Origin: Eledone cirrhosa
Taxonomy: Eukaryota
Direction: 5' to 3'
Length of the DNA stretch: 64,000 nt
Assembly: GCA_964016885.1 (NCBI GenBank)
Contig: OZ024740.1
Location: forward strand, 113,584,001 to 113,648,000
This document shows positions 19,726-58,965 of the stretch, piece after piece. The translations under genes and the position numbers were made by a program. Every line of letters starts with the position of its first letter. Position 1 is the stretch's first letter. The notes beneath the pieces are model-generated. The model was not told the DNA's origin. It did not search any database and was given only the letters and a program-made list of their open reading frames with translations.

Positions 19726-19925
19726 TATGTATATGTACATAGATATATGTATACAAACGTACAGTAGTGTGTATATATATACATACATGCACACATATAT
19801 ATATGTACGTATGGATTTACTGAACATTTATTACAATGCTCGGTTTGTTTGTAACAAACATCACGAATTAAGCGGTACAGTGTTTAGCAACCATCGATGA
19901 CCTTTTGTTCAACACTGACAAAGGA

Positions 19926-19968
19926 ACGATGTACTAGTTTCAAGCGTATTAGCTATCGTCAGCACCGT
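19926..19968 (-). ncRNA. Minimal hammerhead (family A)
   Basis: acggtg CTGACGA tagctaatacgctt GAA ACTAGT A catcgt. One stem II mismatch. Confidence 0.8.
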
Positions 19969-20510
19969 ATACCTTCCTGCCAGATGATTGAACGTCTGAA
20001 AGTATATACTTTCCTTATGCATATTAACGGCTGAGCAGCCTAATTTGCATATCGAGTGAGTTAATCGGCCGGGCACACCGAAAACGATAAATGGAAAGAA
20101 TGAAACGAAATTTCATTTCTCACTCTTAGTACGGCTGTTACTTAAATATAAGTATGTATACGTACATACATATATGTATACAGACCTACACATATGTTTG
20201 TTTACCAACAAACCGAGCATTGTAATAGATGTTCGGTAAATCCATACGTACATATATATATGTGCATGTATATATATATAGATACTACTGTATGTCTGTA
20301 TACATATATGTATGTACGTATACATACTTATATTTAAGTAAAAGCCGTACTAAGAGTGAGAAATGAAACTTCGTTTCATTTTTTCCATTTATCGTTTTAG
20401 GTGCGCCCGGCCGATTAACTCACTCGAAATGCAAATTAGGCTGCTCAACCGTTAATATGCATAAGGAAAGTATATACTTTCAGACGTTCAATCATCTGGC
20501 AGGAAGGTAT

Positions 20511-20553
20511 ACGGTGCTGACGATAGCTAATAAGCTTGAAACTAGTACATCGT
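20511..20553 (+). ncRNA. Minimal hammerhead (family A)
   Basis: acggtg CTGACGA tagctaataagctt GAA ACTAGT A catcgt. Confidence 0.85.
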
Positions 20554-20790
20554 TCCTTTGTCAGTGTTGAACAAAAGGTCATCGATGGTTGCTATACATA
20601 CTTATATATATATATATATAAATCATTTTTATAGAATAGAATGTATAATAGAAGGCTATAGCAAAGTAGATCGGACAAAATATCAATAATAACAAAAAAA
20701 AAATCGGTTTGTTTGTAAACAAACAGCCCGAATTACGCCGTACAGCGCTCGGCAACAATCGTCGCCCTTTTGTTCAACACTGACACAGGA

Positions 20791-20833
20791 ACGATGTTCT
20801 AGTTTCAAGCTTATTAGCTATCGTCAGCATCGT
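20791..20833 (-). ncRNA. Hammerhead (family A) with mutated cleavage triplet
   Basis: acgatg CTGACGA tagctaataagctt GAA ACTAGA A catcgt. GUA has become GAA, so it is predicted inactive. Confidence 0.75.
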
Positions 20834-22967
20834 ATACCTTTCTGTCAGATGGTTGAACTTCTGAAAGTATATACTTTCCTTATGCATATTAACGGTTGAG
20901 CAGCTTAATTTGCATATCGAGTGAGTTAGTCGGCCGACCATACCAAAAACGATAAATGGAAAAAATGAAAGGAAATTTCATTTCTCACTCTAAGTACGGC
21001 TGATATATATATATATATATATTCTGATTTCCAGCTTGCTTGTTTTATTCTCCCATAAACACTGGTATAAACCGCAAGCTATCTTTAAAAAATCTACATA
21101 TTTCTTCTTTCGATTCTTAAAAAAAAATCTCTGAATTCATTCCAACATCTAATTGATAAAAAAACCCAGTGCATTTTATTTTATGAGGATGATAGTCCAT
21201 GATGTTTTAGCACAGAAATCAGAACTATCAGGAAAAGAATTCATACTTGTCTTTAGTTAAGTGATTTGCTAATATGAATCCAAATGTTTGAATGTGGGTT
21301 TAAACTCAATACGTTTTACAGAATAACTTCAAAAAAGATTTCAATCATGCATTCTTGACGAAAATAACATAAATATTTTTCAGGACTCATTCCGACGATG
21401 CTGGAAAAGAACAATAGATTAAAATCTAGACAGGTCAAACCCAATAATGTTATTGTAGGATGATATACATGCACTAAATCCCAATATTTGTTTTAAATAC
21501 TTTGTATGTGAGTCTAGTTTTATAGATATATCAATGGAGGTTTATAGATGAAACTGACTGTTTATTCACCAATTGCCTTTCTCTTAAAGTGTAACCTACG
21601 CATTCACTTTAACACACATGCCATTGACCTAGTCTCGCAGAAAATTGCCAAATCACTCTCAAGTCCACTGTAATGTCTTATATCGGAAGTTTTCAATTAT
21701 ATGTATTTTTTTATAGTGTTTAGTTAGGAAAGAAAAAGTAGTGTCCCTTTCAATCTCTCCAAGGCTGTTGAAATGTAACAATTCCTAGATGCAATATATC
21801 TGAAAAAAAAGACATGATAGTTACAACTGGAATTGTATATCTTATGCTTGTATAAGATCATACCTGACATAGAACTCCACACGTCAATAGCAATGACAGT
21901 AAATATCAACGAAATATCACACAAATCACATACCGTCTTCCAAAAAGTGAAAGGCATATTGTATAATATATAAATAGGTATCCACGAAAAGACAGGATGG
22001 TTATGGTTGGAATACTTTTTTCTCCATGAGCTTACTTGATTAGGTTTTAATCTAGAGCTGAATGACAATGACAGCGGAGACAAAGGTGTGATTTGATGAG
22101 AATTTGGCGGGCATGTCTTATAAGTGGAACGGCCATATAGGAGGCCTTTCGTTGGCAGGTTTTTCTTCATGAAAAAAATTAAGGTTCATATAAAACTACA
22201 AGAGTTTCTCTGGTGGCGTCTCAATGATAATTTAACTATAGCACAATTATCTAGCATTAATTAACCTGATTAAATAAATTATTGACGCGATAGCCATAGG
22301 TGTTTTTTGATTCTATGGTTTACTATAAGATTATCCATTGTATCAATGCGTGTGTAATTAAGAATAATTGGATGGACTGTACAGTCATAAACGACTATTT
22401 GTTTGTTTATATAGTTTCACCATGGACATAAAACTATTCTAGAGTTTCAACGTATTGCGTTCTTATCAGTAGCTGCATACGCTCATTGTAACTGACCAAT
22501 ATGATAGTGTTTACGTTTCTAAAATATATCTAATTAATTTTGATTAGTTAACACATACAATAATGACTAAAATCTATGAGTTTGTCCTATACTATTCTAT
22601 AACATAATTAATGTGAGCACATTACTAATGTAGTTTATCTGTTGGTTTTTAGATATCTGTTGGATGATAAAAGTAGATTTAAAACTACAATCTGGTATTA
22701 ATTATAAACACTCGAAGGTTATGTATTGTTTTCATCTAAACTGATTATTATAAATACATATGGGAGAATATGCGGAGCCATTGACGTGATACGAACAATT
22801 AATACTCGCTTTGCTAGATTACAACACTATCGATTTGATTAACTGCTAGTCTATATAATATATAGACACGTGAATATAAACATTGTAGTGAAACTTCTTC
22901 CCAAATGGCTCGTTATTTTGTTATTGATCAGCACTTACTCGACCGCAAAGGAAATAACGTATATAAC

Positions 22968-23056
<89 letters not shown>

Positions 23057-23059
<3 letters not shown>

Positions 23060-23317
23060 AGGATATTTTCGAAACAGCGAGTGCGTTTGAAATTATTAGA
23101 AATGTAAGCTAGCGCCGTATTTTGACTAAAGAAATTAAAGAAATTATTTAGCCTGATAGTGGGGTTAGGAACCCTCGGAGAAATGGAAAAAGATGAGTAT
23201 GTACGTCAATACTCATCTTTTTCCATTTCTCCGAGGGTTCTTAACTCCACTATCAGGCAAAATAATTTCTTTAATTTCTTTAGTCAAAATACGGCGATAG
23301 CTTACATTTCTAATAAT
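23057..23317. mobile_element. Family C element, fold-back with 109 bp arms
   Basis: 23092-23200 pairs with 23209-23317, loop gtacgtca. Homologous to 57256-57600. Flanked by (TA)n. Confidence 0.88.
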
Positions 23318-23327
23318 ATATATATAT

Positions 23328-23608
23328 ATATTTATTAAAATAACAGATTAAAGTTTAAGCAAAGAATCGCTGGTTTCACCCTTAACGGGATCTTAAGATC
23401 CCTTTAAGGGTGAAAGCAGCGATTCTTTGCTTAAACTTTAATCTGTTATTTTAAGCAAAGAATCGTTGGTTTCACCCTTAACGGGATCTTAAGATCCCTT
23501 TAAGGGTGAAAGCAGCGATTCTTTGCTTAAACTTTAATCTGTTATTTTAATAAATATTTGCTCTACGGTTCTTATATATTTGATTTTAGTCTTCAAATTT
23601 ATTATTAT

Positions 23609-40237: not shown

Positions 40238-40415
40238 TTGGCAGTATTGGCAGAGGGTCAGACATGATTTCCAGTGTAGTTACGTCCCTCTACGATCTGA
40301 GTTCAAATCCCGCCGAGGTTAACTTTGCCTTTCATCCTTAAGGAGTCGATAAAATAAAGTACCAGTAATGTACTGGTTATTTGCTGGCCTTGTCCCAAAA
40401 GTAGAAACAATTATT
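40238..40415 (+). mobile_element. tRNA-derived SINE
   Basis: A box, B box, core and tail. Confidence 0.9.
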
Positions 40416-40709
40416 TTTCTATATTGATGAAACAAACTTAATAATTGCACGTAAGGATATCATTCTGTTCATTTATTTGCTTTGATATATATACATAAAT
40501 AGACACACACATACACACGCATATACACATAAACACATACCCACACATACACACACATACACACGTATATACACACGCATATACACATAAACACATACAC
40601 TCACATACACAAGCGCACGCTCACACATACATATATATAGGGAGAGTCTAGATAAGGAGAAAGGTTGTAATACAGTATTTTTAATTGCACGTGTTGATTT
40701 ACATATATC

Positions 40710-40900
40710 GCTATCAACTCATAGCTTCTAACTTTAATGGGAGGAACATCGGGTTGACAGCCTGGTGTACGTAGCGAAGTCACTTATGTTTTGGGTTCGA
40801 GTACTACGCAGGCTGAAGCAGATTTCTTCCGTTATGGGGTTTTATATTCCTGTTATTAGAATATTTTCTGTATTTCTTTAGCGAAAATACGGTGAAAACT
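40710..40900 (+). mobile_element. Diverged relative of family C (tRNA-like module with conserved flanks)
   Basis: Upstream atagcttctaactttaatgg..cgggttga and downstream atttctttagcgaaaatacgg match family C. The module is closed by cagcctg/caggctg and contains gggttcgag. Confidence 0.55.
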
Positions 40901-40904
40901 TTTT

Positions 40905-40946
<42 letters not shown>

Positions 40947-57059: not shown

Positions 57060-57193
57060 GCTATTATGTTCCTCCTCTTGTATTGTATATTTACGCCATC
57101 TTTATTTAATCTGTTTATTTATTTAATTTTGTTTCGTATATATATATATATGTGTGTGTATATATATATGTATATATATATATATGTGTGTGC

Positions 57194-57225
<32 letters not shown>

Positions 57226-57255
57226 GTATATATATGTATATATATATATATATAT

Positions 57256-57600
57256 AAATTAAAGAAATTATTTAACCTGATAGTGGGGTTCAATAATTTC
57301 TTTAATTTCTTTAGTCAAAATACGGCGATAGCTTACATTTCTAATAATTTCAAACCCACTCGCTGTTTCGAAAATATTCTTACTTGACATTACAGTCGCT
57401 AAGTTTATAGCTTCTAATTTGAATGGAAAGAGACGGGTGATGTGTTGGTGTAAATGGTACACAGTGGTCCGGATAACCAAAGATGTGGATTCGACTCCCA
57501 TGTACGTCAATACTCATCTTTTTCCATTTCTCCGAGGTTTCTTAACCCCACTATCAGGCTAAATAATTTCTTTAATATCTTTAGTCAAAATACGGCGATA
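57256..57600 (+). mobile_element. Family C: 270 bp monomer with internal tRNA-like cloverleaf, partial tandem plus short 5' inversion
   Basis: aataatttctttaat..ctttagtcaaaatacggcgata at 57292 and 57562. 57256-57290 is an inverted piece. Cloverleaf at 57439-57509. Confidence 0.8.
57439..57509 (+). pseudogene. tRNA-like cloverleaf with A and B boxes (not a functional tRNA)
   Basis: gatgtgt/gtacgtc acceptor, gtgt/acac D stem, tggt/acca anticodon stem, gtgga ttcgact cccat T arm. The anticodon loop ccggata lacks U33 and purine 37. Confidence 0.7.
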
Positions 57601-57685
57601 TCTGATGAAAGTGCACCATAATTTGCCTTGGTTGCCCTTGAAATATATATAATAAAATAAATATAGTTTCCATTTATTAATATAT
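57600..57685 (+). ncRNA. Family B hammerhead, 5'-truncated in stem I and fused to family C
   Basis: t CTGATGA aagtgcacca-loop-tggttgccctt GAA ATATATAT A ataaaata, then the family B flank. Confidence 0.65.
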
Positions 57686-57687
57686 TG

Positions 57688-57782
<95 letters not shown>

Positions 57783-58439: not shown

Positions 58440-58627
58440 AATAATTGTTTCTACTTTTGACACAAGGCCAGCAAATACCCAGTACATTACTGGTACTTTA
58501 TTTTATCGACCTCGTAAGGATGAAAGGCAAAGTTAACCTCGGCGGGATTTGAACTCAGATCGTAAAGGGACGTAACTATGCTGGAAAGCAGGTTCGACCC
58601 TCTACCGTTACTGCAAATTCTTCGCCC
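58440..58627 (-). mobile_element. tRNA-derived SINE, full length
   Basis: Tail, core, B box and head. (TAA)-rich on both sides. Confidence 0.9.
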
Positions 58628-58965
58628 TGATATAATATAATAATAATAGTAATAATAACAGTAACAATAATGTTAATAATTATTATTATTAATAATATAG
58701 TAAAAATAACAATGATAATATTAGTCATGATAGTGATCATGATGATGATGATATACGGAGGAGAATGAGAATATTTAAAAAATTCTCATTATTCTAAACG
58801 AAATTGCAATTATTGTTGTATTAGATTTGCAAGATTTTTCGTGTGAAAACGTGTGTTGAAACATATAATAACAACCCGAAAACAGTGCTTAAACGCATAT
58901 AACAAACACTGAAGAACAAAACAAATAAAATACCAAGACAGACACATCCCATATATATATATATA

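What the first reader, a model, noticed from the sequence alone, without database searches (positions are those of the whole stretch)
57256..57600. Family C: tRNA cloverleaf inside a 270 bp partial-tandem element with Penelope-like architecture
Seen: a full cloverleaf with A/B boxes in the middle of the monomer rather than at its 5' end. The upstream sequence, with a tata-like motif ~30 nt before the module, is conserved in the relative at 40710. The unit shows a partial tandem, a 5' inversion and (TA)n targets, has no poly(A) and no hammerhead core, and is fused directly to a family B hammerhead element. Inference: a Pol III-driven non-autonomous element mobilised by PLE machinery, possibly using tRNA-processing nucleases in place of a ribozyme to release monomers. 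I know of no description of this combination.
Basis: partly seen in the sequence, partly recalled or inferred. Interest (0 to 1): 0.75.

Follow-up and report, generated by a model that had tools for sequence, protein, structure and literature searches.

The report
tRNA-promoter passenger of Penelope retrotransposons
This is one of thousands of copies of a 271-base non-coding repeat that has a tRNA-shaped core and no ribozyme and sits in TA repeats with the back-to-back, one-arm-longer layout of Penelope-like jumping genes, so it is likely copied by their enzyme from an RNA that likely starts just in front of the tRNA-like part.

Summary
The observation largely holds. The 270-bp partial tandem, 5' inversion, internal tRNA-like cloverleaf and (TA)n flanks are real, and the family has thousands of copies in three age layers. 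Its ends carry the Penelope-like element (PLE) signature: 40 of 62 loci are head-to-head pairs, and 35 of 37 classifiable pairs join one long and one short 3' end (median offset 39 bp). A coding PLE in this genome shows the same layout. TA-joined 5' ends stop sharply 4 nt before the tRNA, which fits a Pol III start. About half of all arms begin just 3' of the T-loop, likely a reverse-transcriptase stall. The cloverleaf covaries between layers and is closed by a 17-bp leader/trailer stem containing a T5 run. Not supported: a conserved TATA box (the motif is a variable hairpin loop), the hammerhead fusion as a family trait (one junction in the genome), and release by RNase Z. RNase P cutting stays open. 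No autonomous partner was found and no RNA run was listed. This scan noted the family before elsewhere in this genome. Verdict: a SINE-like, ribozyme-free PLE passenger, a new variant that my paper searches did not find described.

The parts
57137..57256 (.). (TA)n target, left flank
57257..57290 (-). Short inverted arm (reverse complement of 57544-57576); the head-to-head second arm, here truncated
   Evidence: 33 bp at 97%
57293..57562 (+). One full 270-bp unit (q1 = 57293; consensus 271 bp)
57322..57366 (+). Tail stem (57322-57328 pairs with 57360-57366); one C-G/U-A compensatory change between young and intermediate layers; candidate RT-binding element (inferred)
57330..57390 (+). Zone of family 3' ends: short class q38-58 (57330-57350) and long class q85-98 (57377-57390), the PLE-type tail
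57398..57411 (+).
57422..57438 (+). Leader strand of the 17-bp stem that closes the tRNA-like domain; contains G at 57435 (-4), the inferred Pol III start
57439..57509 (+). tRNA-like cloverleaf with A box (57446-57457) and B box (57488-57498, G53A in this copy); anticodon loop varies between subfamilies
57512..57528 (+). Trailer strand of the closing stem, including the T5 run at 57519-57523 (terminator-like; must be read through)
57563..57600 (+). Partial second unit ending at q38, a short-class 3' end
57602..57687 (+).
57680..57779 (.). (TA)n target, right flank
23057..23317 (.). Second young copy in the window: head-to-head pair joined near q208-212, ends at about q91 and q56, in (TA)n
40660..40906 (+). 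Old-layer relative with a decayed tRNA-like module, ending in (TA)n

Best explanation
It is a short non-coding repeat with an internal tRNA-shaped domain and no hammerhead core whose copies show the Penelope-type insertion layout, likely transcribed by RNA polymerase III from 4 nt before the tRNA and likely copied in trans by an endonuclease-bearing Penelope-like element. Shown here: copy number, head-to-head arms, two 3'-end classes about 39 bp apart, (TA)n junctions, 5'-end pile-ups, and conservation and covariation of the tRNA domain. Inferred steps: (1) the A/B boxes recruit Pol III, which starts at -4 and reads through the T5 run in some transcripts; (2) a PLE protein binds the structured tail, nicks (TA)n on one or both strands and starts reverse transcription internally, at a long site on one strand and a short site on the other; (3) the RT usually stalls on entering the T-arm (stable helix or m1A58), otherwise runs off at the RNA 5' end; (4) read-through of a tandem source gives a copy of about 497 nt that runs from one tRNA to the tail after the next, and so rebuilds a source locus without any ribozyme or nuclease cut.
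For: 40 of 62 tail-selected loci are two-armed; 35 of 37 classifiable pairs are long+short (binomial p 5e-9), offset 31-60 bp, median 39; 93 of 99 3' ends are followed by TA repeat. PLEs are described with partial tandems, 5' inverted copies, a 30-40 bp tail at one end and (TA)n bias (PMC8557442 passages); the anole PLE extends both strands and starts at two internal sites that bound the tail, without needing its hammerhead (PMC11167929 main text). A coding RT+GIY-YIG family here forms a 3266-bp head-to-head pair with a tail of about 45 bp on one arm. TA-joined 5' ends: 41 of 43 loci at q143-150, 11 at q143, 0 at q136-142 (my count); control window q108-124: 1 locus genome-wide. 52 of 102 arms start at q201-216 against 1, 2, 1 and 8, 8, 2, 5 in the neighbouring 16-nt bins. 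Leader+tRNA+trailer differ at 4 of 108 sites between young and intermediate consensus against 26 of 150 elsewhere (p 6e-4). Sense-strand runs of 4 or more T fall from 4 (old) to 2 to 1 (young). Two-tRNA arms that begin at the first tRNA: L027, L250, L294.
Against: No autonomous PLE sharing the tail was found in 20 ten-kb and 30 three-kb PLE loci (best E 6.8), out of 10,595 candidate GIY-YIG places. A T5 run 10 nt after the tRNA should stop most Pol III transcripts (my knowledge). Arms of up to about 760-840 nt that start upstream of their first tRNA (L271, L008) need read-through of 3 or more T5 runs or a circular template. L271 shares at least 8 rare variants across its units, as rolling-circle copying of one molecule would give. 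The control anchor spans variable positions, so it is less sensitive than that. Covariation rests on essentially two lineages, and the count of pairs changed on both sides was not above shuffles (324 of 500).
Confidence: 0.62

Rival explanations
1. Ribozyme-free retrozyme: tandem transcripts are cut at each tRNA 5' end by RNase P into unit-length monomers that are circularised or template-jumped, and a PLE RT copies them by rolling circle.
For: 14 of 43 TA-joined 5' ends lie at -1/+1, more than the 8 at q148-150 that have a longer microhomology. The whole cloverleaf, acceptor stem included, covaries, more than a box-only promoter needs. Helices recur around the whole unit, including upstream of the inferred start. 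Multi-unit arms share rare variants.
Against: 11 ends lie at -4 and 7 at -3/-2, upstream of the RNase P site. The +1 peak coincides with a T microhomology. A 17-bp leader/trailer duplex would be expected to hinder processing (my knowledge). RNase Z ends are not enriched (3 of 102). A route for ligating RNase P ends is not established (my knowledge).
Confidence: 0.2
2. An ordinary LINE-dependent tRNA SINE (possibly one already catalogued) whose tandems and inversions are secondary, from twin priming and microsatellite instability.
For: Under 700 bp, thousands of copies, 56-63% identity to two host tRNA types, and a subset of copies starts at the tRNA (13 of 42 tRNA-selected loci). An octopus annotation lists 893 unclassified recently active SINE families (PMC13282606), sequences not seen.
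Against: Both arms of inverted pairs carry their own 3' tail with a fixed long+short rule (35 of 37), which twin priming of one RNA does not give. No poly(A). Only 6 of 62 loci start at the tRNA. Sequence upstream of the tRNA is part of the amplified unit (9 of 62 loci, my count).
Confidence: 0.06
3. PLE-mobilised, but the templates are Pol II read-through transcripts; the tRNA fold serves only as an RNA handle (stability, RT recruitment) and not as a promoter.
For: The T5 run pairs with the leader, so it need not be a terminator; long multi-unit arms are easy to explain with Pol II.
Against: A sharp 5' boundary at a C|G step 4 nt before the tRNA, often with extra untemplated bases; A and B box positions are among the best-conserved columns; T4 runs are lost over time.
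Confidence: 0.12

Closest known systems
Animal non-LTR retrozymes (PMC7229834, passages read; bioRxiv 10.64898/2026.07.22.740005, parts 1-3 of 5 read)
   Same: Short (170-400 nt) non-coding structured units in tandem, proposed to be non-autonomous dependants of PLEs.
   Different: Defined by a type I hammerhead in each unit; this family has none and carries a tRNA-like domain. Circular RNA not testable here.
Schistosoma Sm-alpha / Sj-alpha SINE-like repeats (passage in review PMC6765202; the primary paper was not held)
   Same: Pol III promoter inside a tandem unit; a dimer is needed to propagate.
   Different: They release monomers with a hammerhead; here there is none, and PLE-type ends are mapped.
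Helenus / Cassandra / Ajax, 'TRIMp3' (PMC10886601, passages read)
   Same: Non-autonomous retroelements with a tRNA- or 5S-derived Pol III promoter inside the repeated terminal unit rather than at the 5' end.
   Different: They are LTR-dependent, with PBS, PPT and 4-5 bp TSDs; this family shows PLE ends.
EN+ Penelope-like elements and non-autonomous Chlamys such as MRC1 (PMC8557442, passages; PMC11167929, main text)
   Same: Partial tandems, 5' inverted copy, one-sided 30-40 bp tail, (TA)n bias, hammerhead dispensable.
   Different: No ORF here, no sequence match to an autonomous partner found, and no tRNA module in the passages read.
tRNA-derived SINEs (SINEBase definitions, PMC3531059 section 4); octopus OR1/OR2 (seen only as citations calling them CORE-SINEs)
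   Same: Short, high-copy, tRNA-derived, likely Pol III.
   Different: tRNA internal to the amplified unit, tandem and inverted, no simple-repeat tail of its own, partner apparently a PLE and not a LINE.

Membership tests
PLE-mobilised non-autonomous element | Partial tandem units with a 5'-truncated inverted copy | tested here: met
   40 of 62 loci two-armed; tandem arms up to about 3 units
PLE-mobilised non-autonomous element | 30-40 bp tail at only one end | tested here: met
   35 of 37 pairs long+short, median offset 39 bp
PLE-mobilised non-autonomous element | (TA)n target bias | tested here: met
   93 of 99 3' ends
PLE-mobilised non-autonomous element | Autonomous EN+ PLEs in the same genome with the same layout | tested here: met
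PLE-mobilised non-autonomous element | 3' sequence shared with an autonomous partner | tested here: inconclusive
   No match in 50 PLE loci; most of the 10,595 candidate places not examined
PLE-mobilised non-autonomous element | Trans-mobilisation by PLE protein | not testable with these tools
   needs an in vitro or cell assay
Non-LTR retrozyme | Type I hammerhead in each unit | tested here: not met
   0 exact cores on both strands of 3 consensus units; Rfam gives only tRNA in the window
Non-LTR retrozyme | 170-400 nt structured unit in tandem copies | tested here: met
   259-271 nt
Non-LTR retrozyme | Linear and circular monomer RNA | not testable with these tools
   no RNA holder listed
SINE (SINEBase definition) | Short, 100 or more copies, 60% or more identity to a tRNA over 60 nt | tested here: met
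   2310 exact tail hits; best 61-63% to host tRNAs, only 3 types compared
SINE (SINEBase definition) | 5'-terminal tRNA head, interspersed non-tandem copies | tested here: not met
   6 of 62 loci start at the tRNA; tandem and inverted forms are common
SINE (SINEBase definition) | Reverse transcription by a partner LINE, simple-repeat tail | tested here: not met
   Ends follow the PLE rule; no poly(A). The enzyme itself is inferred
SINE (SINEBase definition) | Pol III transcription from the internal promoter | tested here: inconclusive
   Indirect support only: 5' boundary at -4
TRIMp3 (Helenus) | Two LTRs around PBS and PPT, 4-5 bp TSDs | tested here: not met
   No internal region between repeats; flanks are (TA)n
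Functional tRNA gene | Conserved anticodon and isotype-typical structure | tested here: not met
   ARAGORN reads Ser(GGA), Ser(CGA) or Thr(GGT) in different copies, with a short variable loop
Octopus CORE-SINEs OR1/OR2 | CORE domain and sequence identity | not testable with these tools
   Sequences not available; only citations seen

The most novel reading that the evidence does not exclude
A retrozyme-like element that replaced its hammerhead with a tRNA mimic doing two jobs: an internal Pol III promoter and an RNase P site that frees unit-length RNA for circularisation and rolling-circle copying by a Penelope RT, with the T-loop modification of the RNA recorded in the genome as the main truncation point.
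Probability: 0.18. Interest if true: 0.8.

Novelty: new variant of a known kind. Interest (0 to 1): 0.52.

Why it matters
SINEs are defined as LINE dependants, and tRNA-promoter passengers of LTR elements were described in 2024. This looks like the counterpart for Penelope-like elements. At about 270 nt, with thousands of young copies, it is a minimal natural substrate: its ends record where a PLE RT starts (two sites, one per strand), stalls (T-arm) and runs off (-4). That bears on open questions in PLE biology: how tails, inversions and tandems form, and whether hammerheads are needed. Practically, ARAGORN called a tRNA in 23 of 30 young loci, so the family will inflate tRNA gene counts.

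Tried and rejected
(1) Dead-hammerhead origin from the window's other retrozyme-like families: motif-level likeness by eye, but local alignment scores were not above dinucleotide shuffles (18 comparisons, p 0.09-0.94). Rejected as unproven. (2) Search for an autonomous partner: nothing in 50 PLE loci. (3) Upstream TATA promoter: not conserved. (4) B fusion as a family trait: unique. (5) RNase Z release: 3 of 102 arm starts. (6) Linear versus circular template from position-specific variants in tandem units: 303 differences in 6058 paired sites, few recurrent, some from a segmental duplicate pair; not discriminating. (7) Expression: no RNA holder listed; no reads were laid. (8) Source tRNA: Ile(TAT)-like and Asn-like genes score 56-63%, a Lys-like gene 46-55%; other types were not compared, so the origin is unresolved (isotype names are my reading of the sequences). 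(9) An Rfam E-value scan of 4 PLE/retrozyme loci listed microsatellite-driven miRNA hits and one weak snoRNA hit among the 150 of 248 rows shown. (10) A sequence look-up in earlier findings returned nothing. (11) A literature basis for an m1A58 stop in retroelements was not obtained (listing only); that point rests on my own knowledge.

Full report
Coordinates. q numbers refer to the 271-bp young consensus, with q1 = window 57293; the tRNA-like part is q147-218. The window is G000:C1:113584001-113648000 in a 3.0-Gb genome. That it looks octopus-like is my recall-based impression and was used only to choose paper searches.

Observation. The window shows (TA)n, an inverted 33-bp piece, a 270-bp unit, 38-41 bp of a second unit, 86 bp of a hammerhead repeat and (TA)n. 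Rfam finds one tRNA at 57439-57509 (31.6 bits, gathering 29); ARAGORN finds none in the window. This copy has a D-arm deletion and G53A; ARAGORN calls a tRNA in 23 of 30 young loci. A second young copy lies at 23057-23317 and an old relative at 40660-40906.

Family size and layers. The unit has 2481 candidate places, 40 scored, the best at 96-100%. An exact tail 24-mer has 2310 hits and a tRNA-end 23-mer 1555, reversed controls 0. In 100 evenly spaced 10-kb regions, 6 held the family, that is 2.2-13 per Mb or roughly 7,000-39,000 insertions. Three layers emerged: young, intermediate (259 bp) and old.

End mapping. I took tail-pattern hits on contig 1 in coordinate order: 70 loci fetched, 8 dropped as duplicates (7 overlapping views, 1 segmental duplicate), and 7 listed insertions in that span left out (6 held under other ids or in the window, 1 not fetched). 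For the 62 left, ends were curated by hand from BLAST and tallied. 40 are two-armed and head-to-head, 22 single. Of 37 pairs with both ends in a class, 35 join a long end (q85-98) with a short end (q38-58); 3 further pairs had an arm ending elsewhere. The offset is 31-60 bp, median 39. 93 of 99 3' ends run into TA repeat. This matches the PLE description: partial tandems, inverted 5'-truncated copy, 30-40 bp tail at one end, (TA)n bias (PMC8557442 passages). It also fits the anole PLE, which extends both strands and starts at two internal sites bounding the tail, without needing its hammerhead (PMC11167929 parts 1-2 of 4). As an internal control, GIY-YIG has 10,595 candidate places here, 150 scored. 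Locus L352 is a 3266-bp head-to-head pair with a tail of about 45 bp on one arm; its family member L340 carries GIY-YIG (above cut-off) and RVT_1 (27.6 bits, just under the 29.6 cut-off).

5' ends. 52 of 102 arms start at q201-216, just 3' of the T-loop; 8 start at q143-150 and 3 at q217-222, where RNase Z would cut. In a tRNA-selected set, 13 of 42 loci have an arm starting at q139-154. A genome-wide pattern for TA-joined starts in q134-150 gave 119 matches; the 100 rows listed collapse to 43 loci by my count: q135 x2, q136-142 x0, q143 x11, q144 x2, q145 x5, q146/147 x14, q148-150 x8. Many q143 ends carry a few extra bases. The same design for q108-124 gave 1 locus (its anchor spans variable sites). 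I read G143 (-4) as an RNA 5' end, most simply a Pol III start. The peak at -1/+1 could be RNase P or a T microhomology. The q201-216 peak is read as RT stalling at the T-arm or at m1A58 (q203) followed by trimming to microhomology; that reading rests on my own knowledge (one search gave a listing only).

Structure and selection. The cloverleaf sits on a 17-bp stem formed by the leader (q130-146) and the trailer (q221-237), which holds the T5 run; the 109-nt domain folds at z -3.97, 0 of 200 shuffles as stable, though the minimum-energy fold is not the exact cloverleaf. Young and intermediate consensus differ at 4 of 108 sites in this domain and 26 of 150 elsewhere (p 6e-4); the anticodon loop is among the sites that vary. 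On 30 natural copies, 88.4% of cells pair against 23-59% for slid controls, with clear two-sided changes at two acceptor and two anticodon-stem pairs; the number of such pairs (6) is not above shuffles (324 of 500), and the signal is mainly old versus younger lineages. Further short helices recur around the unit. Sense-strand runs of 4 or more T number 4, 2 and 1 in old, intermediate and young consensus, as selection for Pol III read-through would give; this is suggestive only.

Mechanism. Shown: architecture, end classes, pile-ups, conservation. Inferred: Pol III start at -4, partial read-through of T5, internal priming by a PLE protein on one or both target strands, stalling at the T-arm. 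The region q99-142 can only be copied from a multi-unit or circular template; 9 of 62 loci contain it (my count). A transcript from a tandem source gives an arm of about 497 nt from one tRNA to the tail after the next, which is again a source; L027 and L250 have this form and L294 its short-end version. Longer arms (L271 764 nt, L008 about 840 nt) and rare variants shared across the units of L271 keep a circular or jumping template open.

Results against or not found. No partner PLE shares the tail in 50 loci examined. Likeness to the window's hammerhead families is not above chance. The B junction is unique. No RNA holder was listed. The source tRNA is unresolved.

Comparison with what is known. 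It works like a non-LTR retrozyme or non-autonomous PLE but fails the hammerhead test; like a SINE but fails head position and partner type; like Helenus (TRIMp3) but lacks LTR features; and like Sm-alpha without the ribozyme. Papers seen: PMC7229834 passages; bioRxiv 10.64898/2026.07.22.740005 parts 1-3 of 5; PMC10886601 passages; PMC6765202 passages; PMC3531059 passages and definitions section; PMC13282606 part 1 of 3 and passages; PMC4824008, PMC4758252, PMC8967140 passages. Ohshima and Okada 1994 was seen only as a citation; Ferbeyre 1998 was not held. Searches listed no paper that describes a tRNA-promoter, ribozyme-free PLE passenger; Repbase, Dfam and supplements were not seen, so prior cataloguing, for example as an unclassified SINE, is not excluded.

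Earlier notes of this scan, read after my mapping, describe what appears to be the same family elsewhere in this genome and similar elements in other genomes. They are unchecked AI notes and not independent support. Their lead that Hydra-clade PLEs are the carriers was not tested here.

Verdict. A real family, new variant of a known kind; interest 0.52. The RNase P and circle version has probability 0.18 and would deserve 0.8.

Noticed in passing
window 19850-20980, 1400-1700; L347:7060-9900: Retrozyme-like family with an intact minimal hammerhead and an octamer motif; head-to-head pair in the window and a tandem array of at least 6 units of about 480 bp in L347.
   Followed up: partly
   Followed up: partly
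window 23340-23556; L347:6575-6640: Palindromic 96-bp unit in tandem, directly beside the second family C copy; recurs elsewhere next to (TA)n.
   Followed up: no
window 14840 (+) and 41145 (-): Two more very short hammerhead-core matches of one type.
   Followed up: no
window 40255-40415 (-), 58450-58630 (+): Two copies of another abundant repeat with a B-box-like motif, probably a conventional SINE.
   Followed up: no
G000:C4:117364590-117477463 and C1:206118193-206127489: Large tandem arrays of tRNA-like genes (about 1.26-kb period on C4; alternating intron-bearing Ile-like and Lys-like genes on C1, the latter misread by ARAGORN as stop tRNAs).
   Followed up: no
L352:3360-6625: Coding Penelope-like element as a 99.7% identical head-to-head pair with a one-sided tail; looks very recent.
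   Followed up: yes
L013:1820-1860: A family C 5' junction falls inside the stem II of a hammerhead repeat, a second case of nesting at a hammerhead.
   Followed up: no
L001 and L021, q15: The same T-to-A change occurs only in the last partial unit of two copies that both end at q38; possibly a shared source locus.
   Followed up: partly
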